NCBI GenBank assembly: GCA_012510325.1 | Contig: JAAZIG010000012.1 | Coordinates: forward strand, 1-35,912 | Length of the DNA: 35,912 nucleotides | Origin: Bacillota bacterium | GTDB lineage: Bacteria; Bacillota; Dethiobacteria; DTU022 | Direction of reading: 5' to 3' | Shown here: positions 624 to 35,912 of the stretch, one piece after another | Position numbering within the stretch: position 1 is the first letter of the stretch | Layout of the letters: the number at the start of each line of letters is the position of its first letter | The notes under the pieces: model-generated | Told to the model about the DNA's origin: nothing | The model's database searches: none | The model's input: only the letters and a program-made list of their open reading frames with translations | Program-made: the position numbers and the translations under genes

Positions 624-1421
624 CTATTCCAGATTGAGTCTTCTTTCCAAAATATAATTGGTCAACACAAAGTAAATGGCACCCAGAACGACAGCCGGCA
701 GCAGCACGTACCAGACTATCCCGAGGTTGATGGCCATGCCGTCGTTGATCACACCGGTGATTTCCTGCAGGGGTGCCCGGATGCGGGTCAGGAAGATAAA
801 CAGCAGGGTGGTTGAAGCAAAGCCGAGGGCGGCGTACCAGGCCAGGGACACCAGTATTTTATGGCGGGGAGAGATGTGTCCCAGAGCAACAGCCGCATAG
901 ATCATCAGGATACCGGAGGCCATGACCGCCAGGAGCGCTCCGGGAAAAACAAAAAAGCCGGTGACTCCGAAGGCGCTCCCGAAGACGCTGACTGCCCTCT
1001 GCAACACCTCCCACATTCCGGCTCTGGCGGTAATGATCATGATGGAGGAGGCGGTGACAAGACCGCTGGCAGTTATCCATACTGCTGCTGCGATAAGCTT
1101 GCTGACGATATGCTGCCGCGGGTGAACCGGCAGGGTAAACATGAGGTAACCCTCATCGCCCAACAGGCTTTTGTAAAAACGCTGAAGCAAGATCAGCAGG
1201 GTCATGACCTGGATGCCAACAACGAGGACAAAATAGAGCAGTCTGGCCAGGAAACCAAACATCTCCAGAACACCGAAACCGAAAACCTGCGCATCAATAG
1301 CGACAAGCTGCTCAAAATCAATGAATCTGTTGACCAGAGCAAAGACAAGGAGAACAAGATAAAAAGGTAAAAACAGCCGGGCGGTCGCTTTGAATTCGTA
1401 TTTCAATAGTTTTGTCAGCAT
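624..1421 (-). CDS. Polytopic membrane protein, probable permease partner of the adjacent ABC ATPase
   Basis: The 265-aa product is strongly hydrophobic with about 6 predicted TM helices. Its start overlaps the stop of the upstream ATPase gene by 7 nt (1415..1421), which is typical of GntR-ABC-permease operons. Confidence 0.6.
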   Translation of the reverse strand: MLTKLLKYEFKATARLFLPFYLVLLVFALVNRFIDFEQLVAIDAQVFGFGVLEMFGFLARLLYFVLVVGIQVMTLLILLQRFYKSLLGDEGYLMFTLPVHPRQHIVSKLIAAAVWITASGLVTASSIMIITARAGMWEVLQRAVSVFGSAFGVTGFFVFPGALLAVMASGILMIYAAVALGHISPRHKILVSLAWYAALGFASTTLLFIFLTRIRAPLQEITGVINDGMAINLGIVWYVLLPAVVLGAIYFVLTNYILERRLNLE

Positions 1422-3012: not shown

Positions 3013-3100
3013 GATGACTCAAAGAGCTTGCACCATCAGTGAGTCAAAGTCACCGTCCCCTTGACTCGACTCGTCCCCTTGACTCAGTCTCCCTGACTCA
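3013..3100. repeat. Array of five TGA(C/G)TCA-type heptamers, three embedded in a direct repeat GTC(C/T)CCYTGACTC
   Basis: TGACTCA at 3015..3021 and TGAGTCA at 3040..3046. GTCCCCTTGACTC at 3055..3067 and 3073..3085 (18-bp period). GTCTCCCTGACTCA at 3087..3100. The array straddles the stop codon (3084..3086) of the fusion gene. Confidence 0.6.
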
Positions 3101-5807: not shown

Positions 5808-5856
5808 CTTCCCCCCACCATGGTTGTGCTCATTTTTGTGCACATATTCTTTTCCT

Positions 5857-5885
5857 ATTTTATCCGACTTTTCCGCAGGTGGCAA
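5857..5885 (-). promoter_or_regulatory. Sigma-A-type promoter for the aminotransferase-AAR fusion gene
   Basis: On the minus strand: TTGCCA, a 17-nt spacer, then TAAAAT. It sits immediately downstream of the terminator of the preceding operon and about 50 nt upstream of ATG 5807. Confidence 0.55.
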
Positions 5886-8616: not shown

Positions 8617-10974
8617 CTAATCCTGCCGCTCTCCGGCTTGAGCACATCCCCGGTGCAGATTCTTTTGCATCACGGCAAGCAGCGCCGGGGGAACCGCATA
8701 GAGGAGCAGAGTGGCTGCAGCGACCACCCCCGAATCATTCGTCAGCAGGGCGGCGGCGGCTCCGGCGAGGGCCGCCCCCACACCGACAACGAGATAGGGC
8801 TGCTCGCGGTGAAGCCGTTTCAGGAAGCCCCCGGGATAGAGTGACAGGATGATGCAGAGCCCCGCCAGAGTGAGGAAAGCCCGGCTCCAGATAGAGTAGC
8901 GCATCAACCTCAGGTTCATGGCCAGTTTGCGCAGAGCAGTCTCCTGGAGCACCGCCGGACCGCGCAGGCGCAGCATCTCCCCAAAAAGGCCCACATGCGA
9001 TGGCGCCGGGCCGGAGCGGGGTATGTTGAGCAGCCAGAGCAGCCCCGCAGCAACCAGCAGGAAAAAGAGCACGCTGAGCACAACCCGCCTCCGGAACCGG
9101 CCCTTTTGCTCCGCCGCCGCCTGAGACAATCCTGCCCAGGAAACCCCGAAAGCTACCGCTGCGGTGAGGCAACCGCCAAGGTTGGCCCCGAAATTCGGCG
9201 CGGCCAGAACGAAGATGATGAGGCCGTAAAGGAGCAGGATCGACGGAGACGCCAAAGAGAATATCCTGCTTTTTGCCGGCGTCGCCTTCTCTCCCGCCGG
9301 GGGGGCGAGGCCGGCGGCCAGAGAAACCGTTCCCAAAAGAGCCGCTCCGATGAGCACCCCCATATACTCGTTGCCCACGCCGTAATAGCGGGCACCGCCT
9401 ACGGGATCATAACTGAACAGAGAGAGCTGCTGCAATGGGGCACCGGCAAGGGTGTCAAGCAGCAGTAGCAGGACAATCCCCCAGCCCAGCATCGTCCAGT
9501 ACAGAAGCTGTCCCCTTTCTGCCAGAGGCTGGAACAACAGCGCCGCTGCCAGCGCCGTCCCGCAGAGAAGGAGGCCGCTGAGCGGCGCCGCCGCCAACGG
9601 AAAGGTAAACAGCGCCGGCAGCAGCAGCAGCACCGGCGGAACCAGCAGCAACATCCCGATGAGGTAACGGGCCGGCTTCAGCACCGGGCGGATATGAAGA
9701 CAGATCCCCGCCAGAGCAGCCAGGAGCACCAGCATGAGAAGGGCAATATAAGGTTTCAGAAGGAGAGCCCGCTGCTCGAAAACCAGTCCCGCCCGGCGGT
9801 TAAAGCCCTCCAAAAACATGCGGGGCTCTTCTTCCGGGATTATGCTGAAGTAAGCAGCACTGCGCCCGGGATCGCTTTTTTCGCCGCCCAGCAGGTCCAG
9901 GATCAGCGGAGCCAGATCGGTATTCTGAATTAGACCGGGGCGGCGGGTGGAGGTGCTGCCGAGGAGCCCTCCCGCAGCATTACCGCCGGTAACAAGGAGC
10001 GCAGGGGCGAGATGAGCTCCGCTGTCGGGCCGGTTCTGCGGCAGCGAGGGCACCGCCAGAAGCAGCACATCGTTCTCCCCCAGAGCGGAGCGCAGCTCTC
10101 CGAGCAGCCGGTCCAGATTGCGCAGCGTTTCTCCAAGAAGCGCCGCCCCCCTGACCGGGTTGAGCTGAGGCCAGTACTCGTCGAGGCGGCTGCTGTCCCC
10201 GAATTCAACAAGGTGCAGATCCGCCTCCATCATATTGGCGGCAACGGTTCCGGCCAGCTTGTTCACATCTGTGCACACTCCATAAGGAAACAGGGGGGCC
10301 TCCTGCAGCAGCTCCGCTCCCACGAGTCCGCGGCGAACCTCCCCGGCGGCATTCATCGCCACCAGCACGGCACAGCGGTTGGGCACAGCTCCGTCGGCAT
10401 TGCCCCAGACAGCCGCAGTCAGCCCCCTCTCCCGGAGCGCCTCTCCGAGCAGCCCCACCTTGACCGGATAGGGCAGGGTGCTGTTCTTCTCCTGGAGCGC
10501 CGCCGCCTGAAGATGGAACAGCGTTCCGGAGGGCTCATTTCCGGTACAGCGCTTAAAGACAACGGCGGCGTTCTCCCCGTCGATGAACTCGCCCTCGCCA
10601 AAGGCGCTCCTTCCCTCCGCTCCCGCTGCCGCTCTGGCGGCGGTGCCAATACTCAGATAGCCGCTTTCACTGCCCGCTCTTCCGCTGCGCACATTCATCA
10701 GCGCTACGGCACCCTCCTCCAGAACAGAGGACAGATTCGGTCCGGCACCGTGAAGCAGATCAGTATAAGTAAGGCGATCCGCCAGCAGCAGGATCACCCG
10801 CCCGGTAGCCCCGCCCCCTTCAGCGGCGGCGCTGAAAAGAGACTGCGGCGCCCTCGCCCGGCGGCACCACTGAACTGCTGTGACAAGCAAAAGAGAGAGC
10901 ACCACCGCGCCGGCTGCGACGGCCAACCCTACTTTTAGGGGAAAACCCTTTCCGGAACAGAAGCTCCGCTTCAC
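8617..10974 (-). CDS. Large polytopic membrane protein of unknown function: signal-anchor, ~380-aa extracytoplasmic domain (possibly alkaline-phosphatase/sulfatase-superfamily-like), then ~400 aa with many TM helices
   Basis: N-terminal TM segment (VGLAVAAGAVVLSLLLV), a soluble region ending in TRRPGLIQNTDLAPLILDLLG (reminiscent of the sulfatase-fold DIAPT motif), then a long hydrophobic C-terminal half. GTG start 4 nt after the GT4 stop. The function call is weak. Confidence 0.55.
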   Translation of the reverse strand: MKRSFCSGKGFPLKVGLAVAAGAVVLSLLLVTAVQWCRRARAPQSLFSAAAEGGGATGRVILLLADRLTYTDLLHGAGPNLSSVLEEGAVALMNVRSGRAGSESGYLSIGTAARAAAGAEGRSAFGEGEFIDGENAAVVFKRCTGNEPSGTLFHLQAAALQEKNSTLPYPVKVGLLGEALRERGLTAAVWGNADGAVPNRCAVLVAMNAAGEVRRGLVGAELLQEAPLFPYGVCTDVNKLAGTVAANMMEADLHLVEFGDSSRLDEYWPQLNPVRGAALLGETLRNLDRLLGELRSALGENDVLLLAVPSLPQNRPDSGAHLAPALLVTGGNAAGGLLGSTSTRRPGLIQNTDLAPLILDLLGGEKSDPGRSAAYFSIIPEEEPRMFLEGFNRRAGLVFEQRALLLKPYIALLMLVLLAALAGICLHIRPVLKPARYLIGMLLLVPPVLLLLPALFTFPLAAAPLSGLLLCGTALAAALLFQPLAERGQLLYWTMLGWGIVLLLLLDTLAGAPLQQLSLFSYDPVGGARYYGVGNEYMGVLIGAALLGTVSLAAGLAPPAGEKATPAKSRIFSLASPSILLLYGLIIFVLAAPNFGANLGGCLTAAVAFGVSWAGLSQAAAEQKGRFRRRVVLSVLFFLLVAAGLLWLLNIPRSGPAPSHVGLFGEMLRLRGPAVLQETALRKLAMNLRLMRYSIWSRAFLTLAGLCIILSLYPGGFLKRLHREQPYLVVGVGAALAGAAAALLTNDSGVVAAATLLLYAVPPALLAVMQKNLHRGCAQAGERQD

Positions 10975-20613: not shown

Positions 20614-21402
20614 GTGATGGAAGTGAACCGGGAGCAATCCATGGTGCTGGCGCGTTTGCATCTGGAGGCCATCCTTCCCCTTCTCCAAGATATCGCCGCC
20701 CACGATGCCGCCGTCCGGGAAACTATCGCGACCTGGGATTTTCCCCTGCAATTCCGCCTCGCCGAAGGCGGTGCGACAACCACCCTGATTTTCAAAAAAG
20801 GAACGGTGACGGCCCGCTGCGGATCATTCAGCGGATTCACCCCTGCCCTGACCTTCAGGGACTCCGCCTTTCTCAACGAAGTTTTTCAGGGTAAAACAGA
20901 GAAAAATCCCACACCAAACCTGCCCGGCATCTTCAAAGCAAAGCAGCTGATGCAGGTCGACAAAGTCCTGGGCAGGCTGGAGCACTACTTGAAACCGGGC
21001 CCGGAGCAGCTTGGCGACCCCGGGACTTTTGCTTTCTGTGTCCGGATAACCCTTTTTGCCATGGCTTTCGGGATCAAGGTGGTGGGCGAGCATGACCCTG
21101 AAACGAGGCCCATAGCCCTGAATCTGCCGGACGGCACGGTGGAGATGCGAATAGCCGGCGGCGACCCCGCCGCCCACCTCAAGATTGCCGGCGGCCTCTT
21201 TGAAGCACAGCGCGGGCCTGCCGACAAGCCGAATGCTGTCCTTGAATTCAGTGATCTGCAGACGGCCTGGGATACCTTCCAGGGCAATCTCGATACTTTT
21301 GCCGCTGTCGGAGGGGGCCGGGTCAGACTGCGCGGGTTTATTCCCCTGCTGGAAGGGATTAACCCCCTGATGGACAGATTGGCCTTCTACCTTTCCGATT
21401 AG
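20614..21402 (+). CDS. Hypothetical protein, first gene of a five-gene operon; C-terminus weakly SCP2-like
   Basis: Good RBS (GAAAGAAGG) and a coding-like composition. The C-terminal FQGNLDTFAAVGGGRVRLRGFIPLLEGINPLM resembles the SCP2 helix-strand pattern. It is a distant paralog of the product of 24742..25641. The start may be ATG 20617. Confidence 0.6.
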   Translation: MMEVNREQSMVLARLHLEAILPLLQDIAAHDAAVRETIATWDFPLQFRLAEGGATTTLIFKKGTVTARCGSFSGFTPALTFRDSAFLNEVFQGKTEKNPTPNLPGIFKAKQLMQVDKVLGRLEHYLKPGPEQLGDPGTFAFCVRITLFAMAFGIKVVGEHDPETRPIALNLPDGTVEMRIAGGDPAAHLKIAGGLFEAQRGPADKPNAVLEFSDLQTAWDTFQGNLDTFAAVGGGRVRLRGFIPLLEGINPLMDRLAFYLSD

Positions 21403-23716: not shown

Positions 23717-24730
23717 ATGGGTAAAGATGCCGGAACCGTCTGGACGGTCCATGATGCCAACAAGATGACCTCAAAAGAGATCTATGGACGGGTGCTTGCT
23801 GATTTGGGAGAGAGAAACGATAAAATAGTGGGGCTCACCGCCGACCTGGCGAAATCCACAAACATTGGCATATTCGGGGATAAGTTTCCCGAAAGAATGT
23901 TCAACGTGGGCGTGGCCGAACAGAATCTTTTTGGGATCGCCGCGGGACTGGCCGCAACGGGCTTAATTCCCTTCGCCTCAACCTTTGCCACCTTCGCTTC
24001 ACTGCGTGCCGCAGAGCAGGTCAGAACAGATATTGCCTACCAGAATTTGCCGGTGAAGATCATCGCCACCCACAGCGGCCTCAGTTTCGGTACTGCCGGA
24101 ACAACCCACCATGCCACTGAAGATCTGGCAGTGATGCGCGCACTGGCCAATATGACCGTGGTGGTGCCTGCAGACGGTTGGGAGACGGCCAAAGCGGTTC
24201 GCGCCTGCATTGATATTCCGGGGCCCTTTTACATGAGGGTGGGCCGGGGATTTGAACCGCCCCTGCATGAGAATGAAGACTTTGCGTTTGAAATCGGCAC
24301 AGCCATTACCGTAAAGGAGGGTTCAGATATCACCGTCATCACCTGCGGCATTCCTGTTCTCCAGGCCCGGGATGCCGCCAGGGAATTGGAAGATGACGGT
24401 ATCTCCGTCAGAGTGATCAATATGCACACCATCAAACCCATTGACCGGGAGATCATTGTTCAAGCAGTGCTGGAGACCAGAAGGATCGTCACCGTGGAGG
24501 AGCACAATATCATCGGCGGGCTGGGGGATGCCGTTGCCTCCGTCATTGCGGAAAGTGGAAAAGCCTGCGCTTTCACCAAGGTTGGCATCCCGGACGAATA
24601 CAGCGTTATCGGATTCCCGGAAGATCTCTATGCCAGATATAAATTGGACTCAACGGGAATTGCCGAAACCATAAGGGAACTTCTCGGAAAAGAGATCGAA
24701 GCGGACGAAGACTGGACCGATGAAGATTGA
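23717..24730 (+). CDS. Transketolase, C-terminal (Pyr plus C-domain) subunit
   Basis: FNVGVAEQNLFGIAAGLA and HSGLSFGTAGTTHHATEDLAVMRALANM. RBS AAAGGAGGAG. Confidence 0.9.
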   Translation: MGKDAGTVWTVHDANKMTSKEIYGRVLADLGERNDKIVGLTADLAKSTNIGIFGDKFPERMFNVGVAEQNLFGIAAGLAATGLIPFASTFATFASLRAAEQVRTDIAYQNLPVKIIATHSGLSFGTAGTTHHATEDLAVMRALANMTVVVPADGWETAKAVRACIDIPGPFYMRVGRGFEPPLHENEDFAFEIGTAITVKEGSDITVITCGIPVLQARDAARELEDDGISVRVINMHTIKPIDREIIVQAVLETRRIVTVEEHNIIGGLGDAVASVIAESGKACAFTKVGIPDEYSVIGFPEDLYARYKLDSTGIAETIRELLGKEIEADEDWTDED

Positions 24731-24741
24731 GGAGGCCAAAG

Positions 24742-25641
24742 ATGAACAAAGCCAGTGCAGAGGACGTGTTGGCCGCGCGCTTGTTTTTACGGGCCGCTTT
24801 CCCGGCGATGAGGATTCCTCTGACAGAGGATCCTAAGTTTGTCAAAAAATTTGAGAACCTTAATCTTGTCGTTGAATTTAAAGCAAAAGATGCGGAAAAC
24901 CCTCTGGCGGCACATCTGGTTTTCTTGACTGAAGAGAGGGCCAAGGCGATCGCCGAAGGCCAACGCTTCAAAGTGTATGAAGGAGTCTATAGCGGCGCTT
25001 TCGGTGAGATCAAAGTGATCCGGATGCACTTTAAGAGCATTGAGAGCCTGCTCGGCGTATTCAAGGGGAATACACCGCTGGAGATGATGGGCATCGTCCC
25101 TTCTGTCCTGAAAAACATGTTTACAAAAGGCTTCTTTAGCTTTCTGTTCCTGATGCTGTCGCTGATGAAAATGATGCCCGATTTCGTTCCCGGCGTCGAT
25201 GAACCGTTTGAACAATATCTCAAGGTCAAAATGTCACTCTACATGATCACCACGGCCATGTCCCGGGCCACAAAATCAGGCTATGAGCCCATGGTAAAAT
25301 GGACCGAAAAGCAAACCGATAGAATCTATCAGTTCAAAGTTGGTCCGACCATCGTTGACGGAAAAGAGATCTATCCCGAAATTGGCGCTTACTTAAGGGT
25401 GAAGTACGGTCAGACCAAGGCGGGCCGGGGGGTCTATTCCAGAAAAAGCCCCTTCGTTCTGCTCAGCTTCCCCAATCCCGCCGGCTGCATCGCCATCTTG
25501 AGCGGCAAACCGTTTGTCGAGGCCGTTGTAGAAGGCTGCGTGGAGATCATCGGAGCCGGCGACAGTTACGCCATCACCTTCAACGATCGGATGATGGATA
25601 TTCAGGATAAACTGGTCCCCTCGAAATTTTTGAAACATTAA
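24742..25641 (+). CDS. Hypothetical protein, last gene of the operon; distant paralog of 20614..21402
   Basis: ATG 24742 follows RBS GAGGAGG. Shared blocks with the first gene: F(R/K)(D/S)..(F/L)L..VF(Q/K)G(K/N)T, a central hydrophobic segment, and an SCP2-like C-terminus (ILSGKPFVEAVVEGCVEIIGAGD). Confidence 0.6.
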   Translation: MNKASAEDVLAARLFLRAAFPAMRIPLTEDPKFVKKFENLNLVVEFKAKDAENPLAAHLVFLTEERAKAIAEGQRFKVYEGVYSGAFGEIKVIRMHFKSIESLLGVFKGNTPLEMMGIVPSVLKNMFTKGFFSFLFLMLSLMKMMPDFVPGVDEPFEQYLKVKMSLYMITTAMSRATKSGYEPMVKWTEKQTDRIYQFKVGPTIVDGKEIYPEIGAYLRVKYGQTKAGRGVYSRKSPFVLLSFPNPAGCIAILSGKPFVEAVVEGCVEIIGAGDSYAITFNDRMMDIQDKLVPSKFLKH

Positions 25642-27659: not shown

Positions 27660-27707
27660 CCCTGTTCCTCTTCCCTTCGCTTTTGATGCTGTTGCATGGC
27701 TGCATCT

Positions 27708-27736
27708 ACGCTATCATCTATGGAAGTTGCTGTCAA
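27708..27736 (-). promoter_or_regulatory. Weak promoter candidate for hisG
   Basis: On the minus strand: TTGACA, a 17-nt spacer, then TAGCGT preceded by TGA (extended -10-like). Confidence 0.35.
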
Positions 27737-27895
27737 CAGCTTTTCAGCACCCCCATTGGGTCCGCTTGCAGGAGGGCAGCTCCGGGAAATGCCGAATTGG
27801 GGGAATGCCGTGAGACCGGCAGGATTTAGCAGAACCCAAGGCGAATCTTCTTAAAGTATCGAAATTTCCGTTAAACAAAAAAGGAGGTCCAGCCT

Positions 27896-29227
27896 ATGTC
27901 CTCCAGTGAGATGAAGCGTGCCAAACGCCACCTGGAGACCACCCGTAAAATGAAAGATATGCTGCCGCGCTTCTTTATGCGCACCTTCGAAAGGCGCTTC
28001 AGCAATGAGCCGCTGGCCTGGTGTATGGTCGGAGTGCCGCCGGAGCTGTTGAAGGCGTTTGACCTGCTCTGGGAATGGCCGGAAAACTTCGGCACCCTCT
28101 GTGCCAGCCGCCTTGTCGCCCCCGATTTTATTAAAACAGCCGAAGGAGACGGCTACTCTCCGGAGCTCTGCACCTATGTCACCAATACGATGGGCTACTG
28201 CAAGCGCTGGATCGAAGCCGGGGAACCTCCCGAGGAATCGCCCATGCCCGGCGGAATGGGCAACCCGACCATGCTTTTAGGATCGGGATTTCTCTGTGAA
28301 CCGCGCTACAAGTGGTTCCAGGCCATCGCCACCCGTTTTCTCGATGTCCCCGTCTACAGCAGCGATCCCCTGGCCCCGCCCTGGGATGTCGATCCCCACG
28401 ACCCCCGCATCGCCGCTCATTACAAGGATCTGCTGCGCGAAGACCTGCACGGCCAGGTTGAATTTCTGGAGCGGCACACGGGCAAAAAGTTGGATCTGGA
28501 CCTTTTGCGCGAGATCATGGCTCTCTCCCATGAAGCGCTGGCCTACTGGCGGGATACGCTGATGCTGCGTCAGGCTGTCCCCTGCCCCATGGGCTCCACC
28601 GACTACTTTTCCGCGATCATCCCGCAGATGTATATGGTCGGCGAACAGGACGCTGTCGATTTTTACCGGGAGATGTATCACGAAGTCAAGGACCGGGTCG
28701 AGCGCAAAGTGGGTATCGTCGAAGAAGAAAAATACCGCCTGGTCTGGTTCGGGCTGCCCCCCTGGTTCAACCTGGGCTTCTTCAACTATCTTGAATCGCT
28801 TGGGGCGGTCGTGGCTCTGGAGTCTACGTACAACGTCGGCGATTGGTTTGAGGTGGAGCTGGATGATCCGCTGGAAGCCATCGTCGAGCGGGCCTGGGCG
28901 CGCACCGTGCGGATGCATGAGTATGGAACCGAGGCCATGCCCGAGCTCTGCAACCCCGCAGTCTTCGGCGGTTTTGTCGGCAGCGATATTCTTAAGGAAT
29001 TTGTTGACCAGTTCCACCTCGATGGAGCAGTGATGCACCTGACCCGCTCATGCCGCGCCGTCTCTTTTGGCGAGGTCCATACCCGAAATCGTCTGGCGGA
29101 GTTCGGGGTGCCCTCACTGATTTTTGAAAGTGATATGGCTGATCCCCGTCTCTGGTCCGATGCCCAGATCAAGACAAGGGTGCACGCCTTTATCGAAACC
29201 CTGGCCGGCAGGGCGGCCAAACGCTGA
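27896..29227 (+). CDS. 2-hydroxyacyl-CoA dehydratase/benzoyl-CoA reductase (HGD-D) family subunit
   Basis: LAWCMVGVPPELLKAFDL is an N-terminal motif typical of the family. Conserved Cys positions are present. 443 aa. RBS AAGGAGG. Confidence 0.75.
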   Translation: MSSSEMKRAKRHLETTRKMKDMLPRFFMRTFERRFSNEPLAWCMVGVPPELLKAFDLLWEWPENFGTLCASRLVAPDFIKTAEGDGYSPELCTYVTNTMGYCKRWIEAGEPPEESPMPGGMGNPTMLLGSGFLCEPRYKWFQAIATRFLDVPVYSSDPLAPPWDVDPHDPRIAAHYKDLLREDLHGQVEFLERHTGKKLDLDLLREIMALSHEALAYWRDTLMLRQAVPCPMGSTDYFSAIIPQMYMVGEQDAVDFYREMYHEVKDRVERKVGIVEEEKYRLVWFGLPPWFNLGFFNYLESLGAVVALESTYNVGDWFEVELDDPLEAIVERAWARTVRMHEYGTEAMPELCNPAVFGGFVGSDILKEFVDQFHLDGAVMHLTRSCRAVSFGEVHTRNRLAEFGVPSLIFESDMADPRLWSDAQIKTRVHAFIETLAGRAAKR

Positions 29228-29287
29228 GCTCGAGCCGGCCGGAAGGCGTCTCCGGGCTATATCTTACTGTAAGGAGAGATCACAGGA

Positions 29288-30421
29288 ATGCAAAAATTAT
29301 CAGGGCTGGCTCGCGCGGCAGCGATCGCCTCGCAACCGGAAGCGCGGGTTAAGGAACTGCGGCGGGAAAGCGGCAAACCGGTAATCGGCTATCTCTGCTG
29401 CTTCGCCCCGCCCGAGATCATCAGCGCCGCCGGAGCAATCCCGTACCGGATTACCGGCCGTCCCGGCGAACCGACCGCTGAAGCAGATGCCTACATAGAG
29501 CCATACGGCTGCACCTATGTGCGCAATGTCTTCACTCAGGGTCTCAAAAAGCGCCTCGATTTCCTGGACGGGCTGGTTATCCCACACAGCTGCGATATGA
29601 TCCAGCGCCTTTACGGGATCTGGACCTACTACCATCCTTTCCCCTATTCGCGTCTCTTCAATGTCCCGCACCAGGTGACCCCCTGGGCGGAACGCTTTTT
29701 AAAACGTGAGTTCATCTTTTTCCAGGAAAGCCTGGAACAATATACCGGAGAGAAGGTCACCGAAGAGAAACTGCGCCGGGAGATCGAGCTGACCAATCGC
29801 AACCGCGCCCTCATCCGTGAACTTTACCGCCACCGGCTGGAGAACCCCCCGCTGATCAAGGGCAGCGAAATGCTCAGTCTGCTGCTGGCCGGCGGATGGC
29901 TCCCCCCGGAGGACTTCAATGGGTTGCTGACCGAAGCGCTGGCGGAAGTGGAGAAGAGAACCCCCGAGGGGCCGGCGCGCCCGCGGATCCTGGTCTGGGG
30001 CAGCCTGCTCGATGATGTCGCCTTCTACCGGATGATCGAAGAGGCCGGCGGAGACGTTGTCGCCGACGATATCTGTATCGGTATGCGCCTTTTCGAAAAG
30101 GATATCGATATCTCCGGCGATCTTTACGATGGGTTGAAAGAACATTACTTCGTCAATTTCCAGTGTCCCCGCACCGACCGCGGTCCGGGCCTGACGCGTT
30201 TCGACTATCTTCTGGAAAGAGCCCGCGAATATAATATCGACGGAGTGATCGCCTACATCATCTCATTCTGTGATCCCCATAAATTTGATTACCCGGATTT
30301 ACGGGATTACCTCAAGGAAGCGGACTACCCGATGCTGCTTATCGATGACAACTACAGCTTTACCCCCGCCGGGACCATTCAGACCAGATTGGAAGCCTTT
30401 ACCGAGCTGTTAGGGTCTTAG
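29288..30421 (+). CDS. 2-hydroxyacyl-CoA dehydratase (HGD-D) family subunit, partner of the preceding gene
   Basis: VIGYLCCFAPPEIISAAGAIPYRITG and later CPRTDRG and SFCDPHKFDYP, typical of the family. RBS AAGGAGAG. Confidence 0.8.
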   Translation: MQKLSGLARAAAIASQPEARVKELRRESGKPVIGYLCCFAPPEIISAAGAIPYRITGRPGEPTAEADAYIEPYGCTYVRNVFTQGLKKRLDFLDGLVIPHSCDMIQRLYGIWTYYHPFPYSRLFNVPHQVTPWAERFLKREFIFFQESLEQYTGEKVTEEKLRREIELTNRNRALIRELYRHRLENPPLIKGSEMLSLLLAGGWLPPEDFNGLLTEALAEVEKRTPEGPARPRILVWGSLLDDVAFYRMIEEAGGDVVADDICIGMRLFEKDIDISGDLYDGLKEHYFVNFQCPRTDRGPGLTRFDYLLERAREYNIDGVIAYIISFCDPHKFDYPDLRDYLKEADYPMLLIDDNYSFTPAGTIQTRLEAFTELLGS

Positions 30422-30441
30422 ATTTTTATCGGCTTATGGAG

Positions 30442-30489
30442 CGGAGGATCCCCGCCTGCACCGCAGGCAGGAGGGGGATCCTCCGTTTT
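30442..30489 (+). terminator. Intrinsic terminator after the dehydratase pair
   Basis: CGGAGGATCCCC pairs with GGGGATCCTCCG (12 bp) around an inner hairpin GCCTGC-acc-GCAGGC, followed by TTTTG. Confidence 0.7.
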
Positions 30490-30723
30490 GCCTGGGTTTT
30501 CTCCACCAACCTGAAGCCCTGCGCAGGCGTCGCTTTTTAGTCAAGTCGCTCTCCGGTGATACCGCCCCCCGTTCGAAAAAGCGGTAACCATCACCTCCCG
30601 AAGCCCCCTCTCCCGGGGGAAAATACCCTTGTCACCCCTGCACACATATGAGAGAATAGAGCCATTAACCTGGTAGAAACAGAAGCAGGCAGAACATTCG
30701 CAGGCAAAGGTGTGTGATCGTCG

Positions 30724-31965
30724 ATGGCACTAATTGTTCAAAAATTCGGAGGCAGTTCCCTGGCAACAGCAGAACATCTCCGGCGGGTCGCCCATATAAT
30801 TGCCAGGACCAGGAATAACGGCCACTCCGTTGTGGTCGTGGTCTCGGCCATGGGCGGTGAAACCGACCGGCTTTTAAATCTGGCCGCTGAGATAACTGCG
30901 GTGCAGCCCCCCCGGGAGCTCGATGCTCTCCTATCCACCGGCGAGCAGGTTAGCGCCGCCCTTCTGGCGATCACCCTTGAAAGTATGAAGATTCCCGCCC
31001 GCTCCTATCTGGGGCTGCAGCTGCCCCTGCGGACGGACTATAACCATACGCGGGCACGCATTGTCGAACTTCCTACCGAACAGCTTCAGGAAACCCTGAC
31101 CCGGGGAATTATTCCGATAGTCGCCGGCTTTCAGGGGGTCAGCCCCGGCGGTGATATCACCACTCTGGGCCGGGGAGGATCCGACACTTCGGCGGTGGCG
31201 CTGGCCGCAGCGCTGCGAGCGGACCGCTGTGAGATTCACAGCGATGTCGACGGGGTCTACACCGCCGACCCGGCGATCTGCCCGCGGGCCCGCCATCTGC
31301 GCCGGATCAGCTACGGCGAGATGCTGGAGATGGCCGATATGGGCGCCAAAATATTGCAGATCCGCTCCGTGGAGCTGGCCCGTAAATTCAAGGTCCCCCT
31401 GCTGATCAAGTCTTCTTTTGGCGGTGACCGGTGCACCTGGATCGTAGAGGAGGAAGAAAACGAAATGGAAAGTGCAGTGATTAGCGGTATCATCCTGAGC
31501 CACAACGAGGCCAAACTGTCCGTTATCCGGGTCCCCGACCGCCCCGGAATCGCCTACCAGATCCTCTCCCCCCTGGCGGAGGCGGATATCAATGTGGATA
31601 TGATCATTCAAAATGCGAGCATCGACGGCCACACCGACTTTACCTTTACTGTTCCCAAAAGCGAACTGACCAAGGCGAGAGAGCTGGTCGAGGAAGTCAT
31701 CCCGAAAATCGACGCCCGGGAGCTCTCCACCGACGACGGCATCGTCAAGATATCCGCGGTGGGACTGGGGATAAAAAACTGCCCCGGCGTCGCCGCCCGG
31801 ATGTTCCAGACCCTGGCCGACGAAGGGATCAATATCCAGATGATCAGCACCTCCGACATCCGTCTCTCCTGCGTCATCGAAGCAAAATATGGGGAGCTGG
31901 CCGTGCGGGTGCTGCATGACCTCTTCGGCCTGGAGAAGAACAACAACCTTGATTCGTTCAGGTAG
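30724..31965 (+). CDS. lysC: Aspartate kinase (monofunctional, two ACT domains)
   Basis: MALIVQKFGGSSL, VVVVSAMGGETD, TLGRGGSDTSAVALA and a C-terminal ACT pair. Confidence 0.95.
   Translation: MALIVQKFGGSSLATAEHLRRVAHIIARTRNNGHSVVVVVSAMGGETDRLLNLAAEITAVQPPRELDALLSTGEQVSAALLAITLESMKIPARSYLGLQLPLRTDYNHTRARIVELPTEQLQETLTRGIIPIVAGFQGVSPGGDITTLGRGGSDTSAVALAAALRADRCEIHSDVDGVYTADPAICPRARHLRRISYGEMLEMADMGAKILQIRSVELARKFKVPLLIKSSFGGDRCTWIVEEEENEMESAVISGIILSHNEAKLSVIRVPDRPGIAYQILSPLAEADINVDMIIQNASIDGHTDFTFTVPKSELTKARELVEEVIPKIDARELSTDDGIVKISAVGLGIKNCPGVAARMFQTLADEGINIQMISTSDIRLSCVIEAKYGELAVRVLHDLFGLEKNNNLDSFR
31447..31467 (+). promoter_or_regulatory. Internal RBS plus in-frame ATG, candidate start of an aspartate kinase beta subunit
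   Basis: GAGGAGGAAG, 8 nt, then ATG (codon 248, MESAVISGI...) at the beginning of the ACT region. Confidence 0.4.
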
Positions 31966-32039
31966 CCCGGTGGCGGCGCACACGCCCCCCCACCGGTCCG
32001 GGGAAACAACTCCCCATCTGTAAAATATCGGCCCACCGG

Positions 32040-32062
32040 TGCGGGGTGGGCCAATATTTCGG
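32040..32062. terminator. Bidirectional terminator between lysC and the HesB-like gene
   Basis: GGCCCACC-ggtgcgg-GGTGGGCC, flanked by AAAATATC on the left and AATATTT on the right. Confidence 0.6.
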
Positions 32063-32107: not shown

Positions 32108-32416
32108 TTAGCAGCTGCAACCGCCACCTGAACAGTCCGGCTCTGCGGCGGTGACGGTGAAACCAGGGTGAACACCACTTTGGTAATCGATCGCTTTGCC
32201 GTTCACAAATGGAGCGATCCCTTTCCGATAGGTAAACACAAGCCCATCTATCTTGGCAACCATATCGTACTCCTCATCGATTGACTCATCCAGAGCCAGC
32301 CCCAGGCGGGGGCCGCCTCACCCTGCGCCCTTCAGGTAAAGGCGGATTGCATGGTTCTCTTTACCCGTCAGGATCTCCCTCAGCTGCCGGGCGGCTGCTT
32401 CTGTTACCGTGATCAT
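32108..32416 (-). CDS. HesB/IscA-like selenoprotein (in-frame TGA read as selenocysteine at codon 33)
   Basis: This gene is absent from the ORF track. The minus-strand translation is MITVTEAAARQLREILTGKENHAIRLYLKGAG-U-GGPRLGLALDE...PGFTVTAAEPDCSGGGCSC (102 aa). It aligns with IscA/HesB (LRLGVRTSGCSGMAY... and a C-terminal CxC), with TGA (32318..32320) exactly at the first conserved Cys. Strong RBS AAGGGGGAAGGG. A GC hairpin lies directly 3' of the TGA. Confidence 0.8.
32285..32317 (-). promoter_or_regulatory. Candidate bacterial SECIS element
   Basis: The RNA immediately after UGA is GGCGGCCCCCGCCUGGGGCUGGCUCUGGAUGAG. It can form GCCCC-cgccu-GGGGC or GGCGG-ccc-CCGCC hairpins. The exact fold was not computed. 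Confidence 0.45.
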
Positions 32417-32701
32417 TTCCCTTCCCCCTTTTCTTTTTCAGAGACGAGAGACGAAGGGTTATATTCGGCCTGATTTCGAGAAATCCTGCTCCCGTTGCCT
32501 AAAGGGCAACAGTAGATAACGCTGCCACGCTTGACAGTGAATCAGACCGGCTCCGCTTCCGTTTATCCCGTACAGAAATGATTGCCGATTCTAAGCCCGG
32601 CGGGAACGGCATATAGATTAGCATGGCTCTGCACCGGGCCGGGCAGTCCATTCTCGACAACGGCAACGCCGGCCCCACCCCCCGTAAAAGAGGCGTTGGC
32701 T

Positions 32702-33478
32702 GTGTCCTTTTTCCGTAATGTCAGCGTGATTTCCCTTCCTTCATCTGTCTGGCCCTTCCTGGCCCTGCTGGGGCTGGCGCTGGCGCTGGCGGTTTATCCG
32801 GCCCCCCTCTCAAACCCTGTCTCCCTCTACTTCGGCAGCCCGATCAAGGGGATCATCGTAGCGCTGGATCCCGGCCACGGCGGAATCGACTCCGGGACTC
32901 ATTACGAAGCGATCTTGCTGGAAAAAGAGATCGTTTTGGAGGTGGGGCTGGAGCTGCGCCGCCTGCTGGAGCAGGCCGGCGCGCAGGTGATGATCACCAG
33001 GGTGAAAGATGAAGAGCTGAGTTATCATTTTCCTGACAGCGGCCTCGCCCGCCACCGCCGTGACATCCGGGGACGGGTCAAGCTGATCAACAGCTCACAG
33101 GCCGATCTGCTGATCAGTCTTCATGTCAATTCCATCCATGATCCCACTGTCAGGGGGCCTATCGCCTTTTACAGCGCCGGAAATCCGGAGAGCAAACGCC
33201 TCGCCGCGGCGGTCCATAATGCGCTCAATCCGCTTTTCAGCACCGACGCCAAACCGGGCCAGCTGGTCCATCAGGATCCGCAGGAGAGCAGCGCCTACTA
33301 TCTTCTCAATGAGACCGCCATGCCCGGCATTATCCTGGAGATCGGCTTTATGACCAACACCGACGATCGCCGGATGCTGGAAAAGGGATCATCCCGCCAT
33401 GAGATCGCCCGGGCAATTTTCCTCGGTGTTTTGGACTATGTCTATGGGAACACAGAGCCCGCAGAAGGGAGCCCCTAA
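32702..33478 (+). CDS. cwlD: N-acetylmuramoyl-L-alanine amidase (Amidase_3), CwlD-like germination-specific type
   Basis: Signal anchor, then VALDPGHGGIDSG, LISLHVNS and ILEIGFMTNTDD. GTG 32702 follows RBS AAAGAGG and gives 258 aa. The 40 upstream codons in the track are unsupported. Confidence 0.8.
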   Translation: MSFFRNVSVISLPSSVWPFLALLGLALALAVYPAPLSNPVSLYFGSPIKGIIVALDPGHGGIDSGTHYEAILLEKEIVLEVGLELRRLLEQAGAQVMITRVKDEELSYHFPDSGLARHRRDIRGRVKLINSSQADLLISLHVNSIHDPTVRGPIAFYSAGNPESKRLAAAVHNALNPLFSTDAKPGQLVHQDPQESSAYYLLNETAMPGIILEIGFMTNTDDRRMLEKGSSRHEIARAIFLGVLDYVYGNTEPAEGSP

Positions 33479-34579: not shown

Positions 34580-35912
34580 TTATGCCGAGGCGCTGCTCCC
34601 TGAAGAGGCTTTGGCCCTGACAGAGCGGCCGATTAAGATTCCCACAACCAGAAAAACAACCATGGAGACCAGCCAGATGGCCAGCAGCAGCAAGCTGACC
34701 TTGTTAAAGCCGGGCTGCAGTTCTCCGGTGATCCCGGTGATCATCTGCTCCAGCCCGGGGATGATCTTCGTGACAATGCCGCCCTTGAGCTCGCCGATAC
34801 CGCCGAGCACGTCGGTGCGAATACCGCTGATGACCAGTCCAAGGCCGTCGCTGACCCCCGGATCACCGCCGGGGTTGGGGGTGAAAGCGGGGTTGGCCAG
34901 ACCGCGGCTAATCTTGGTCAGCCCTTCAATGATCCCCGATTCGCCCTCCACCCGCTCGGTCTTGTTAAAACCGGCGAGCAGCTTGTACGTTCCCGGAATC
35001 ATGATCTCATCCATGCCCTCTTTGATCTCACCCAGCCCGGGGACAATCTCCATGGAGAGGCCGGTGACAATCCCGTCAAGCCCATCGCCGACCGGTCCGG
35101 CCAGCCCGCCGCGGAGCTGGGTGAGACCGCCGACCACGGTGCCTTCTGTCGCGGCATCACCAAGACCGGTTAAAACAGTACCCAACACTTCACTAACCCC
35201 GGGACTGCTCGGATCACCGGTCCCCGATAGACCATAACGAACCTGGGTCAAACCGCCAACGACAGTGCCGTCTGTCGTGGTATCACCAAGACCGGTTAAA
35301 ACAGTCCCCAACACCTCGCTGACACCAGGATTGGCCGGATCTCCGACCCCCGATAGACCATAACGAACCTGAGTCAAACCGGCAACGACAGTACCGTCTG
35401 TTGCGGCATCACCAAGACCGGTTAAAACAGTCCCCAACACCTCGCTGACACCAGGATTGGCCGGATCACCGACCCCGGACAAGCCGTCCTGAATTTTAGT
35501 CAGACCGGGAATAATGGTATCCTCGGCACCATCCAGATAAGCCAACATCATATCAAGACCTGCCAGCATGCCCTCATCTTCATTGATCTTGACTAACAAT
35601 GCATTGAGATATACTTTAGCCTGCGCCAACTTTTGCGCAGCTTCGTCGGGATCTGAAGATGATTCTGCTGCCTCGATTAAACTTATGGCCCCCTGAAGTG
35701 CAGGCACCCCTCCGGTCGTCAGCTCATCCTTAATCTCCGAAATACCACCTTTGATTCCGCTGAGTCCTGGAATGATTTTTTCATCCAGATTCTTAACCAT
35801 AAGGCCGTCAATGGCAGCTTTGATGGAACTAAGACCAAAGATCATCCCCGCGGAAGAATCCGTCAACCCGCCAAGAATCTGATCCAAACCGCCAACCATC
35901 TGGCCGTCAATG
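34580..35912 (-). CDS. Repeat-rich envelope protein with xxxLxxG heptads (YhgE/Pip-like repeats) and a C-terminal TM anchor; 5' end outside the window
   Basis: The frame stays open to the window edge (…IDGQMVGGLDQ). There are repeated GL(T/S)xIxxG(L/I) heptads, three 42-aa tandem units, and a C-terminal hydrophobic helix LLLAIWLVSMVVFLVVGILIG. Confidence 0.7.
   Translation of the reverse strand, partial: IDGQMVGGLDQILGGLTDSSAGMIFGLSSIKAAIDGLMVKNLDEKIIPGLSGIKGGISEIKDELTTGGVPALQGAISLIEAAESSSDPDEAAQKLAQAKVYLNALLVKINEDEGMLAGLDMMLAYLDGAEDTIIPGLTKIQDGLSGVGDPANPGVSEVLGTVLTGLGDAATDGTVVAGLTQVRYGLSGVGDPANPGVSEVLGTVLTGLGDTTTDGTVVGGLTQVRYGLSGTGDPSSPGVSEVLGTVLTGLGDAATEGTVVGGLTQLRGGLAGPVGDGLDGIVTGLSMEIVPGLGEIKEGMDEIMIPGTYKLLAGFNKTERVEGESGIIEGLTKISRGLANPAFTPNPGGDPGVSDGLGLVISGIRTDVLGGIGELKGGIVTKIIPGLEQMITGITGELQPGFNKVSLLLLAIWLVSMVVFLVVGILIGRSVRAKASSGSSASA
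35100..35470. repeat. About 2.9 tandem copies of a 126-bp (42-codon) unit inside the heptad-repeat gene
   Basis: The motif ATCACCAAGACCGGTTAAAACAGT recurs at 35156, 35282 and 35408, an exact 126-bp period. Units 2 and 3 are almost identical over their first ~60 nt. The encoded unit is GVGDPANPGVSEVLGTVLTGLGDAATDGTVVAGLTQVRYGLS. Confidence 0.8.

What the first reader, a model, noticed from the sequence alone, without database searches (positions are those of the whole stretch)
32108..32416. Unannotated HesB/IscA-like selenoprotein gene with in-frame UGA at the cluster-ligand cysteine position
- The ORF track shows nothing real here, because a TGA splits the frame into two short pieces.
- Reading through TGA 32318..32320 (minus strand) gives a 102-aa protein with a strong RBS.
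- Its layout matches the A-type Fe-S carrier family. The G-A-G-U-G-G-P segment sits where IscA has S-G-C-S-G, and the C-terminus keeps the Cys pair (CSGGGCSC).
- A GC-rich hairpin follows the UGA, as expected for a bacterial SECIS.
- A HesB-like selenoprotein family is known from anaerobes (a TIGRFAM for HesB-related selenoproteins exists, as I recall), so the family is not new.
- It is nevertheless an easily missed recoding event. It implies the organism carries selA/selB/selC/selD, and it is biochemically barely studied.
Basis: partly seen in the sequence, partly recalled or inferred. Interest (0 to 1): 0.7.

Follow-up and report, generated by a model that had tools for sequence, protein, structure and literature searches.

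The report
Missed HesB-like selenoprotein gene
A small gene that standard gene callers cut in two at a TGA codon almost certainly encodes a 102-residue IscA/HesB-type protein with selenocysteine in place of a metal-cluster cysteine; it is a new, somewhat divergent member of an already known selenoprotein family.

Summary
On the minus strand, ATG 32416 to TAA 32108 is one 102-codon frame interrupted only by TGA 32320..32318 (codon 33).

- **Domain.** Both halves align to a single IscA/HesB domain. The TGA sits on the first conserved cysteine (GGGCSG) of solved IscA-type proteins.
- **Ortholog.** A syntenic ortholog keeps the TGA. dN/dS is about 0.25 on both sides of it.
- **Homologs.** Among 71 distinct homologous genes, 54 have TGA and 17 have TGC/TGT at this codon, and none has anything else.
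- **RNA structure.** TGA-bearing genes, but not Cys-bearing ones, keep a conserved structure downstream. It has a small UGA-proximal hairpin (window 32313..32299) and a second hairpin with an invariant UGGAY loop (32298..32282). Only the second fits the published bacterial SECIS consensus, with 25 nt of spacing.
- **Genetic code.** TGA is an ordinary stop in 11 of 29 window genes, so the code is not reassigned.
- **Family.** This is the known HesB-like (UxGP) selenoprotein family. The protein scores below the curated cut-offs of TIGR01911 and NF038090.
- **Limit.** The window matches only metagenome-assembly contigs, and no sel genes lie in it or in the extension examined, so Sec machinery could not be checked.

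Verdict: real, and a new member of a known kind, of modest interest.

The parts
32417..32431 (-). Ribosome-binding region AAAGGGGGAAGGGAA immediately upstream of the ATG
   Evidence: Read directly from the sequence. The same AAAAGGGGGAGTGGAA-ATG arrangement occurs in ortholog L001, although the rest of the upstream flank is only about 31% identical without gaps.
32108..32416 (-). Full coding sequence of the HesB/IscA-like selenoprotein (102 codons plus TAA), read through UGA at codon 33
   Evidence: Translation. Full-length HMM matches to NF038090 and PF01521. dN/dS against L001 is 0.27 before and 0.24 after the TGA.
32318..32320 (-). In-frame UGA, inferred selenocysteine codon (U33), in the motif G-A-G-U-G-G-P
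   Evidence: It aligns with the Cys of GGGCSG in 2apn and 1nwb. The same codon is TGA in 54 and TGC/TGT in 17 of 71 distinct homologs. It matches the family motif UxGP (PMC13188914).
32299..32313 (-).
   Evidence: The core pairs 10-12/18-20 (counted from the U of UGA) are 92% paired in TGA genes. Pair 12-18, formed by two synonymous third-codon positions, covaries (CG 34, GC 12, UA 2) but is paired in only 3 of 17 Cys genes. The loop starts only 9 nt after the UGA, which is outside the 16-37 nt rule.
32282..32298 (-). Hairpin HP2 (UGGCUC-UGGAU-GAGUCA), the best SECIS candidate; apical loop at 32292..32288
   Evidence: RNAalifold finds it in the TGA set only. It is 97% paired with compensatory changes in TGA genes against 72.5% in Cys genes. 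The loop positions U29 G30 G31 A32 are invariant in 54 of 54 sequences. It has a 6-bp stem, a 5-nt loop, G at loop position 2 and 25 nt of spacing, so it fits the bSECIS model. A covariance model built without the window scores it at 62.5 bits, E = 4e-11.
32111..32134 (-). C-terminal cysteine cluster C95-SGGG-C100-S-C102
   Evidence: C100 and C102 align with the CGC motif of Aquifex IscA 1nwb. Cys-rich C-termini are present throughout the family.
32021..32052 (-). Intrinsic-terminator-like hairpin plus T-run (GGCCCACC-CCGCACC-GGTGGGCC-GATATTTTA), 56 nt after the stop codon
   Evidence: Terminator scan and direct reading. A similar GGCCCA...GGTGGGCC-AATTCTTTTT follows the ortholog in L001. It lies between the convergent aspartate kinase gene and this gene.

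Best explanation
Window 32416..32108 (minus strand) is a single, functional, monocistronic gene for a 102-residue A-type (IscA/HesB-fold) protein of the known HesB-like selenoprotein family.

**Shown by comparison:** the UGA at codon 33 is conserved, and the frame is under purifying selection on both sides of it.

**Inferred mechanism:** the UGA is decoded as selenocysteine by SelB-GTP-Sec-tRNA(Sec), recruited by an mRNA structure inside the coding sequence just downstream. That structure has two parts. The first is a short UGA-proximal hairpin (HP1, nt +8 to +22). The second is a 6-bp hairpin with an invariant UGGAY loop (HP2, nt +23 to +39). HP2 is the part that fits the bacterial SECIS consensus and is the probable SelB-binding site. 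HP1 probably shapes or shortens the spacer, or masks the UGA before the ribosome arrives.

**Inferred function:** in the protein, U33 replaces the first of the three cluster-ligand cysteines of IscA-type carriers, and C100 and C102 supply the other two. The most likely role is therefore binding and transfer of an Fe-S cluster (or iron) with a selenolate ligand. No member of the family has an experimentally defined function.
For: - **One domain.** The full-length match to NF038090 IscA_HesB_Se covers residues 1-102 against profile 1-101, and each half hits the matching part of the profile. PF01521 scores above its gathering threshold.
- **Sec at the ligand cysteine.** U33 aligns with the ligand Cys, and C100/C102 with CGC, in solved IscA-type structures.
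- **Ortholog.** Syntenic ortholog L001 is 85% identical in DNA. It keeps TGA at codon 33, with dN/dS of 0.27 and 0.24 on the two sides, and its flanks are unalignable.
- **Homologs.** TGA appears in 54 and Cys codons in 17 of 71 distinct homologs, at one and the same codon.
- **Structure in TGA genes.** The two hairpins are 95.4% paired, with covariation above all 500 shuffles and far above slid controls.
- **Structure in Cys genes.** Pairing is 71.9% and no better than shuffles. Mean structure energy is -10.25 against -1.77 kcal/mol, Mann-Whitney p = 1.7e-8.
- **Held-out test.** A covariance model built without the window and L001 scores the window at 62.5 bits, E = 4e-11, above every Cys-form gene searched (18-55 bits).
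- **SECIS consensus.** HP2 meets the published rules for loop, stem, G position and 16-37 nt spacing.
- **Genetic code.** TGA terminates 11 of 29 other window genes, and none of them has an in-frame TGA.
- **Gene boundaries.** An RBS precedes the ATG, and a terminator follows the full-length stop.
- **Literature.** HesB-like (UxGP) is an established selenoprotein family, confirmed by 75Se labelling in M. maripaludis.
Against: - No selA, selB, selD or tRNA-Sec is present in the 36-kb window, in a ~9-kb extension, or in related loci. The only matching public records are metagenome-assembly contigs, so possession of the Sec machinery is unverified.
- The protein is below the curated cut-offs of NF038090 (67 against 85), TIGR01911 (26 against 66) and TIGR00049 (43 against 58.8).
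- No Rfam family, SECIS or other, gave a meaningful match in 32150..32450 at E <= 10.
- In the window's own sequence the thermodynamic optimum (-21.2 kcal/mol) is an extended UGA-proximal hairpin that uses the CUC of HP2. The two-hairpin state is at -16.9.
- HP2 alone is only -6.5 to -7.5 kcal/mol, at the edge of the consensus energy rule.
- Selenium incorporation and Fe-S binding were not and cannot be tested here.
Confidence: 0.87

Rival explanations
1. The gene is a pseudogene: an IscA/HesB gene inactivated by a nonsense mutation (TGC/TGT to TGA) at the cysteine codon.
For: A single base change converts a Cys codon to TGA. Gene callers report only fragments.
Against: - The TGA is retained in a diverged ortholog, with equal purifying selection downstream (omega 0.24) and upstream (0.27).
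- 54 distinct homologs from unrelated lineages carry TGA at the same codon, with intact frames.
- A Sec-specific RNA structure is conserved.
Confidence: 0.03
2. The TGA is a true stop. The locus makes a 32-aa peptide and, separately, a C-terminal fragment started at the internal ATG (M52).
For: Both pieces are listed as ORFs. Databases hold many 52-66-aa C-terminal fragments.
Against: - The two pieces are the N- and C-terminal parts of one small domain, and neither could fold alone.
- Codons 34-51, between the TGA and M52, include the invariant GGPRLGLALDE motif.
- Where present, the internal Met in homologs lies at other positions: residue 40 in L001/P0001, and 38-40 in the fragment calls. 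Many homologs have none between the TGA and the window's M52 position.
Confidence: 0.03
3. UGA is read through without selenocysteine. Either the code is globally reassigned (code 4 or 25), or a near-cognate tRNA inserts Trp or Cys, with the RNA structure acting as a generic read-through stimulator.
For: Some database relatives are stored with W at this site (GxGWGGP). Sec machinery could not be shown for this organism.
Against: - TGA ends 11 of 29 window genes and never occurs in-frame in them, so the code is standard.
- The W entries are most simply TGA translated with code 4 by metagenome gene callers (inference).
- TGA alternates only with Cys codons, never with TGG or Gly codons, in 71 homologs. 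This is the signature of Sec.
- The hairpin fits the SelB-type SECIS consensus, and the family is a proven selenoprotein family.
Confidence: 0.05

Closest known systems
HesB-like selenoprotein family (motif UxGP; TIGR01911 HesB_rel_seleno / NF038090 IscA_HesB_Se; Kryukov, Zhang and Gladyshev selenoproteome surveys; M. maripaludis HesB-like protein)
   Same: - Small (about 100 aa) IscA/HesB-fold protein.
- A single Sec in U-x-G-P at the first conserved cysteine position.
- Sec/Cys homolog pairs, and Cys forms that retain remnant SECIS elements.
- The gene context here also suggests an anaerobe (2-hydroxyacyl-CoA dehydratase genes in the window; a glycyl-radical enzyme and its activase in matching contig L119).

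   Different: - It scores below both curated HMM cut-offs (67 against 85 and 26 against 66).
- No relative above about 45% identity was found other than one metagenomic ortholog.
- Its C-terminus is CSGGGCSC.
A-type Fe-S cluster carriers IscA / SufA / ErpA (PF01521; PDB 1nwb, 2apn)
   Same: Same domain over its full length. The positions of the three cluster ligands are conserved: the first Cys of GGGCSG, and the C-terminal C-x-C.
   Different: - The first ligand is Sec rather than Cys.
- The motif after it is GGPRLG rather than SGFQYG.
- The protein is below the TIGR00049 cut-off.
- It is not in an isc, suf or nif operon, but monocistronic between the aspartate kinase and cell-wall amidase genes.
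Bacterial SECIS elements (E. coli fdhF type; bSECISearch consensus model)
   Same: A stem-loop inside the ORF just 3' of the UGA. HP2 has a 6-bp stem, a 5-nt loop with G at position 2 followed by G, and 25 nt between the UGA and the loop.
   Different: - There are two adjacent hairpins rather than one long one.
- The loop UGGAY is invariant because it overlaps the conserved Leu-Asp codons.
- No Rfam family matches it.

Membership tests
HesB-like selenoprotein family | In-frame UGA at the position of the first conserved Cys of the IscA/HesB domain, with Cys-containing homologs at the same position | tested here: met
   The PDB alignments place U33 on the Cys of GGGCSG. The same codon is TGA in 54 and Cys in 17 of 71 homologs.
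HesB-like selenoprotein family | UxGP motif (PMC13188914, Table 1) | tested here: met
   U33-G34-G35-P36.
HesB-like selenoprotein family | Score at or above the curated cut-off of TIGR01911 (66.35 bits) | tested here: not met
   26.1 bits, covering residues 2-69 only.
HesB-like selenoprotein family | Score at or above the curated cut-off of NF038090 IscA_HesB_Se (85 bits) | tested here: not met
   67 bits. This is the best hit and is full length. Of 10 TGA-bearing relatives scanned, only L003 passes, at 107.5 bits.
HesB-like selenoprotein family | Selenium actually incorporated, and Sec-decoding genes (selA, selB, selC, selD) present in the genome | not testable with these tools
   The only matching public records are metagenome-assembly contigs. 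No sel genes or tRNA-Sec occur in the window, the extension or the related loci.
Bacterial SECIS (bSECIS consensus model) | Apical loop of 3-9 nt, upper stem of 4-16 bp, G in the first two loop positions, and 16-37 nt from the UGA to the loop | tested here: met
   HP2 has a 5-nt UGGAU loop, a 6-bp stem, G at loop position 2 and a 25-nt spacing. HP1 fails the spacing rule at 9 nt.
Bacterial SECIS (bSECIS consensus model) | MFE of -7.5 kcal/mol or lower | tested here: inconclusive
   HP2 is -7.5 in context and -6.5 in isolation. HP1 plus HP2 extended is -16.9. The competing single long hairpin is -21.2.
Bacterial SECIS (bSECIS consensus model) | Structure conserved in Sec-encoding genes and relaxed in Cys-encoding homologs | tested here: met
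   Pairing is 95.4% against 71.9%. Covariation exceeds 500 of 500 shuffles in the TGA set against 401 of 500 shuffles as high in the Cys set. The energy difference has p = 1.7e-8. The held-out covariance model gives 62.5 bits.
Bacterial SECIS (bSECIS consensus model) | Match to a curated Rfam SECIS family | tested here: not met
   No SECIS family appeared among hits at E <= 10 in 32150..32450, and none at gathering score in the window.
A-type Fe-S carrier (IscA/SufA/ErpA, PF01521) | Pfam PF01521 above its gathering score | tested here: met
   34.8 bits against a cut-off of 26.3.
A-type Fe-S carrier (IscA/SufA/ErpA, PF01521) | Three conserved ligand residues (Cys in GGGCSG, plus the C-terminal C-x-C) | tested here: met
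   U33 replaces the first. C100-S-C102 aligns with CGC of 1nwb.
A-type Fe-S carrier (IscA/SufA/ErpA, PF01521) | NCBIfam TIGR00049 cut-off (58.8 bits), or an equivalog model (IscA, SufA, ErpA) | tested here: not met
   TIGR00049 43 bits, ErpA 38 against 117, SufA 32 against 136, IscA 25 against 151.
A-type Fe-S carrier (IscA/SufA/ErpA, PF01521) | Binds and transfers Fe-S clusters | not testable with these tools
   Requires biochemistry.

The most novel reading that the evidence does not exclude
The recoding signal of this family may be more than a plain single-hairpin bacterial SECIS. It may be a conserved two-part or switching element.

The invariant CUC (nt 26-28) can pair in two ways. It can pair with the GAG that overlaps the UGA (nt 2-4), giving a long hairpin that buries the stop codon. 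Or it can pair with the downstream GAG (nt 34-36), giving the SelB-type hairpin HP2. HP1 is maintained by covarying synonymous sites in both states. If real, ribosome-driven refolding would present the SECIS only when the UGA reaches the decoding centre.

Separately, the window protein and its one ortholog may define a Firmicute-type (inferred from gene content) subclade that the curated models do not capture.
Probability: 0.2. Interest if true: 0.45.

Novelty: new member of a known kind. Interest (0 to 1): 0.27.

Why it matters
- **Annotation.** The gene is absent or fragmented in the public gene calls for this contig and its ortholog. It also falls below the cut-offs of the HMMs that NCBI's annotation uses to name such proteins, so divergent members of this clade are probably missed systematically.
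- **Physiology.** It marks the source organism as a probable selenium user. From gene content, that organism is likely an anaerobic, spore-forming Gram-positive bacterium.
- **Dataset for SECIS work.** The comparative set assembled here is 54 TGA forms, 17 Cys forms, fossil SECIS elements and tandem Sec/Cys paralogs. It gives a clean natural experiment on which nucleotides a bacterial SECIS needs.
- **What it does not change.** The family, the recoding mechanism and the Sec-for-Cys position were already described. The biochemical role of HesB-like selenoproteins remains unknown.

Tried and rejected
- **Single-sequence folding.** Folding the 66 nt after the UGA gave z = -0.12 against shuffles, so the hairpin alone proves nothing.
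- **Rfam.** Neither the gathering-threshold scan nor the permissive scan found a SECIS family.
- **Read-through protein as a query.** The same restriction applies to structure prediction, so no structure was predicted. The C-terminal half was used for the search instead.
- **Species-representative genomes.** The scan found no close relative; the best was 40% identical. The organism could not be named, and its Sec machinery could not be inspected.
- **Extending the contig.**
  - Walking right with the last window ORF found nothing on record.
  - Walking left added about 9 kb with a glycyl-radical enzyme, its activase and other genes, but no sel genes.
- **tRNA-Sec.** A search in the window and 58 loci found none.
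- **Other split genes.** A scan of the window for other TGA-split frames outside annotated genes gave 10 candidates. None has a Pfam hit, and all look non-coding.
- **Alternative hairpin.** The long hairpin 2-12/18-28 was tested. It is compatible with the data (86% paired), but its distinguishing outer pairs are invariant. Its pairs 6-24 and 8-22 are no better kept in Sec genes than in Cys genes, so it is neither supported nor excluded.
- **Rejected readings.** Pseudogene, two separate ORFs and global code reassignment were considered and rejected.

Full report
**1. The observation**

On the minus strand an ATG at 32416 is preceded by AAAGGGGGAAGGGAA. It opens a frame that runs to TAA at 32110..32108 and is interrupted only by TGA at 32320..32318, which is codon 33. 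The mechanical ORF list shows just a 32-aa piece and a 51-aa piece that starts at an internal Met. Public gene calls on contigs carrying the same or orthologous DNA show the same breakage: a lone 32-aa gene in L118, and 32 + 63 aa in L001. The read-through product is 102 aa: MITVTEAAARQLREILTGKENHAIRLYLKGAG-U-GGPRLGLALDESIDEEYDMVAKIDGLVFTYRKGIAPFVNGKAIDYQSGVHPGFTVTAAEPDCSGGGCSC.

**2. One domain, with the UGA at a ligand cysteine**

- With Cys substituted for the stop, the best NCBIfam match is NF038090 IscA_HesB_Se. It scores 67 bits and covers residues 1-102 against profile positions 1-101.
- The next matches are the generic A-type carrier model TIGR00049 (43 bits), then ErpA, SufA and TIGR01911 HesB_rel_seleno (26 bits).
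- The N-terminal and C-terminal pieces, scanned separately, hit the corresponding halves of the same NF038090 profile.
- Pfam PF01521 is above its gathering threshold, at 34.8 against 26.3.
- Against solved structures, the protein aligns over its length with H. influenzae HI1723 (2apn) and Aquifex IscA Aq_1857 (1nwb).
- Residue 33 falls exactly on the Cys of GGGCSG. C100-S-C102 falls on the C-terminal CGC.
- By established knowledge of A-type carriers, these are the three cluster-ligand positions.

**3. Comparative evidence that the UGA is translated**

- *Ortholog.* A syntenic ortholog lies next to aspartate kinase and two HGD-D genes in L001, a Logan assembly. It is 85% identical in DNA across the gene and has TGA at the same codon. 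Nei-Gojobori dN/dS is 0.27 for codons 1-32 and 0.24 for codons 34-102. The 120-nt flanks are only about 22-31% identical without gaps. Purifying selection therefore continues unchanged past the stop.
- *Genome scan.* A scan of species-representative genomes found mostly ordinary GGGCSG IscA genes. Three genes carry TGA at codon 33: one each from a Desulfovibrionaceae MAG, Firmicutes UBA2595 and a Thermincola MAG.
- *Metagenome scan.* A scan with a profile of these sequences returned 80 loci.
- *Codon tally.* Extracting the motif [U/C]-x-G-P-x5-L-D-E gave 71 distinct DNA sequences. Of these, 54 have TGA, 17 have TGC or TGT, and none has any other codon. Alternation of TGA with Cys codons only is the classical signature of a selenoprotein.
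- *Exhaustive HMMER search.* A search with the C-terminal half found mainly 52-66-aa C-terminal fragments, which are truncated gene calls. It also found full-length entries with W at the site (GxGWGGP). I interpret the W as TGA translated with code 4 by metagenome gene callers; this is inference.

**4. The genetic code of the organism is standard**

Of 29 confidently placed genes in the window, 11 end in TGA, and none contains an in-frame TGA. Ten other TGA-split frames outside annotated genes have no Pfam match and look non-coding.

**5. The recoding signal**

*Single-sequence folding.* This is uninformative in such GC-rich DNA. The MFE is -22.3 kcal/mol and z is -0.12.

*Conserved structure.* The ungapped alignment of 54 TGA-bearing sequences is numbered from the U of UGA. 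It shows two elements.
- HP1 pairs nt 10-12 with nt 18-20. In the window it extends to GCCCC/GGGGC at 32313..32299.
- HP2 pairs nt 23-28 with nt 34-39 around an invariant U29-G30-G31-A32-Y33 loop. In the window this is UGGCUC-UGGAU-GAGUCA at 32298..32282.

*Pairing in TGA genes.* 95.4% of cells are paired. Covariation is 0.270 against 0.149 in shuffles, with 0 of 500 shuffles as high. Slid controls give 23-53% pairing.
- Pair 12-18, formed by two synonymous third-codon positions (Pro and Leu/Phe), is CG 34, GC 12 and UA 2.
- Pair 25-37 is GC 37, AU 11 and GU 5, with no mismatch.

*Pairing in Cys genes.* The 17 Cys-encoding homologs encode the same GGPRLGLALDE peptide, yet the same structure is only 71.9% paired and no better than shuffles.
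- Pair 12-18 is paired in 3 of 17.
- Pair 27-35 is paired in 8 of 17.
- The Ala codon is GCU in all 54 TGA genes, but GCU 8, GCC 8 and GCG 1 in the Cys genes.

*Energy.* Mean structure energy is -10.25 kcal/mol in TGA genes against -1.77 in Cys genes, p = 1.7e-8.

*Codon choice in the window.* GCU is a minority Ala codon in the window (15%), and UCA a minority Ser codon (9%), yet both are used in HP2.

*Held-out test.* A covariance model built without the window or L001 scores the window at 62.5 bits (E = 4e-11) and L001 at 60.4. Both are above all Cys-form genes, which score 18-55 bits.

**6. Which hairpin is the SECIS?**

The published bacterial consensus has four rules (PMC13188914):
- a 3-9-nt loop;
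- a 4-16-bp stem;
- a G in the first two loop positions, usually followed by G or U;
- 16-37 nt between the UGA and the loop, with MFE of -7.5 kcal/mol or lower.

HP2 fits. It has a 5-nt loop, G at position 2 followed by G, a 6-bp stem and 25 nt of spacing. Its energy is -7.5 in context and -6.5 in isolation, which is borderline.

Its loop starts only 9 nt after the UGA, so it fails the spacing rule. It is nevertheless a selected structure in most TGA genes.

There is one caveat. In the window the thermodynamic optimum (-21.2) is an extended HP1 in which G2-A3-G4 pair with C26-U27-C28. This excludes HP2; the two-hairpin state is at -16.9. Across the family this long hairpin is 86% paired. However, its distinguishing outer pairs are invariant and therefore uninformative. 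Pairs 6-24 and 8-22 are no better kept in Sec genes than in Cys genes. A refolding switch is possible but unproven. A ribosome positioned on the UGA would in any case have melted HP1 and left HP2 at the mRNA entrance; this is inference from general ribosome footprint geometry.

**7. Context**

- The gene is monocistronic. It converges on aspartate kinase (30724..31965, plus strand), with a terminator-like hairpin and T-run at 32052..32021.
- It diverges from an Amidase_3 gene (32582..33478).
- The window has 58% GC. It carries housekeeping and cell-wall genes typical of a Gram-positive spore-former: MurT, an N-acetylmuramoyl-L-alanine amidase (Amidase_3), VanY, YetF/DUF421, DUF4363 and a PrsA-like rotamase. 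It also carries two HGD-D-type dehydratase genes.
- No sel genes and no tRNA-Sec are present.
- The only matching public records are metagenome assemblies (ENA ERZ4239849, NCBI GCA_046128275.1). A ~9-kb extension adds a glycyl-radical enzyme and its activase but no Sec machinery.

**8. Comparison with what is known**

- HesB-like protein is an established prokaryotic selenoprotein family with motif UxGP, listed under TIGR01911 (PMC13188914).
- Eleven bacterial members and Sec-to-Cys conversions with remnant SECIS elements, such as in D. hafniense, were described in 2006 (PMC1794560).
- The M. maripaludis member was confirmed by 75Se labelling, and its function is still unclear (PMC11097638).
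- The window protein has the defining UxGP motif at the defining position and a SECIS of the family's type.
- It falls below the curated cut-offs of both NCBIfam selenoprotein models. So do 9 of the 10 TGA-bearing relatives I scanned.
- It is therefore a divergent new member of a known kind, not a new kind.

**9. Mechanism, with levels of support**

- *Shown by comparison:* the UGA is conserved, the frame is selected on both sides, and a Sec-specific RNA structure is present.
- *Inferred from established knowledge:* SelB-GTP-Sec-tRNA(Sec) binds the HP2 loop and delivers Sec to the UGA.
- *Inferred from homology:* U33, C100 and C102 form the ligand set of an A-type carrier. The protein therefore binds and passes on an Fe-S cluster or iron, with a selenolate ligand.
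- *Not known:* the physiological client, and why Sec is preferred.

**10. Verdict**

The details to correct are the identity of the SECIS hairpin and the HMM membership. Interest is modest. It lies in an annotation gap and in a useful natural dataset for SECIS constraints, not in a new biological principle.

Noticed in passing
L045:1112-1561 (TGA at 1328) next to the Cys form at L045:1923; L093:3334-3786 (TGA at 3553) next to the Cys form at L093:3097: Two metagenomic contigs carry tandem paralogs of the HesB-like gene about 450-600 nt apart. One has TGA (U-R-G-P-R-L-A-L-A-L-D-E) and the other has Cys at the same codon. This looks like a Sec/Cys isogene pair of the kind known for methanogen selenoenzymes.
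   Followed up: partly
L044:3103-3153, L046:3103-3153, L048:3103-3153, L061:925-975, L064:86-136: Five Cys-encoding homologs keep the HP2 sequence GCTCTGGATGAGTC. They score 45-55 bits with the SECIS covariance model, far above the other Cys forms (18-41 bits). They look like fossil SECIS elements left by recent Sec-to-Cys conversions.
   Followed up: partly
window 32293..32319 (nt 2-28 from the UGA): An alternative long hairpin pairs the GA of the UGA plus the next G with the invariant CUC of HP2. It is the MFE structure in the window (-21.2 against -16.9 kcal/mol) and is possible in every TGA-bearing homolog. It cannot form together with HP2, so it may be a refolding switch.
   Followed up: partly
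P0004, P0009, P0016, P0017 (protein representatives): Full-length database relatives have Trp at the Sec position (GIGWSGP, GLGWGGP, GVGWGGP, GYGWGGP). They are probably selenoprotein genes that metagenome gene callers translated with genetic code 4. Their DNA could not be retrieved to confirm this.
   Followed up: no
window 3084..5885 (-): This is a 933-aa ORF (909 aa as called in L119). The class-III aminotransferase domain covers only residues 52-441, and the C-terminal ~490 residues have no Pfam match.
   Followed up: no
window 8617..10974 (-), 34580..35899 (-), 624..1421 (-), 20614..21402 (+), 24727..25641 (+): These long ORFs have no Pfam family at E <= 1e-5. The 439-aa ORF at the right end is not on record as a called gene. 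By my coordinate reckoning, two public contigs covering this locus end at about window 34.9 kb, inside that ORF, which would suggest a repeat or variable element there.
   Followed up: no
L119:14236-18198 (left of the window in matching contigs); L121:4876-7893: Just beyond the window's left end lie a 1005-aa glycyl-radical (PFL-like) enzyme and its radical-SAM activase, behind a TetR regulator. In one assembly (L121) the enzyme is split into 703 + 258 aa pieces.
   Followed up: no
window 123..479 (+) and L119:11638-12321: This is a flavin-reductase-rubredoxin fusion protein (227 aa in full), cut by the window's left end. Like the two HGD-D genes at 27896..30421, it is typical of anaerobes.
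   Followed up: no
window 30422..30723 and 27660..27895: Two untranslated regions of about 300 and 240 nt lie upstream of the aspartate kinase and HGD-D genes. Neither has an Rfam match at gathering score. A lysine riboswitch might have been expected before a Firmicute aspartate kinase.
   Followed up: no
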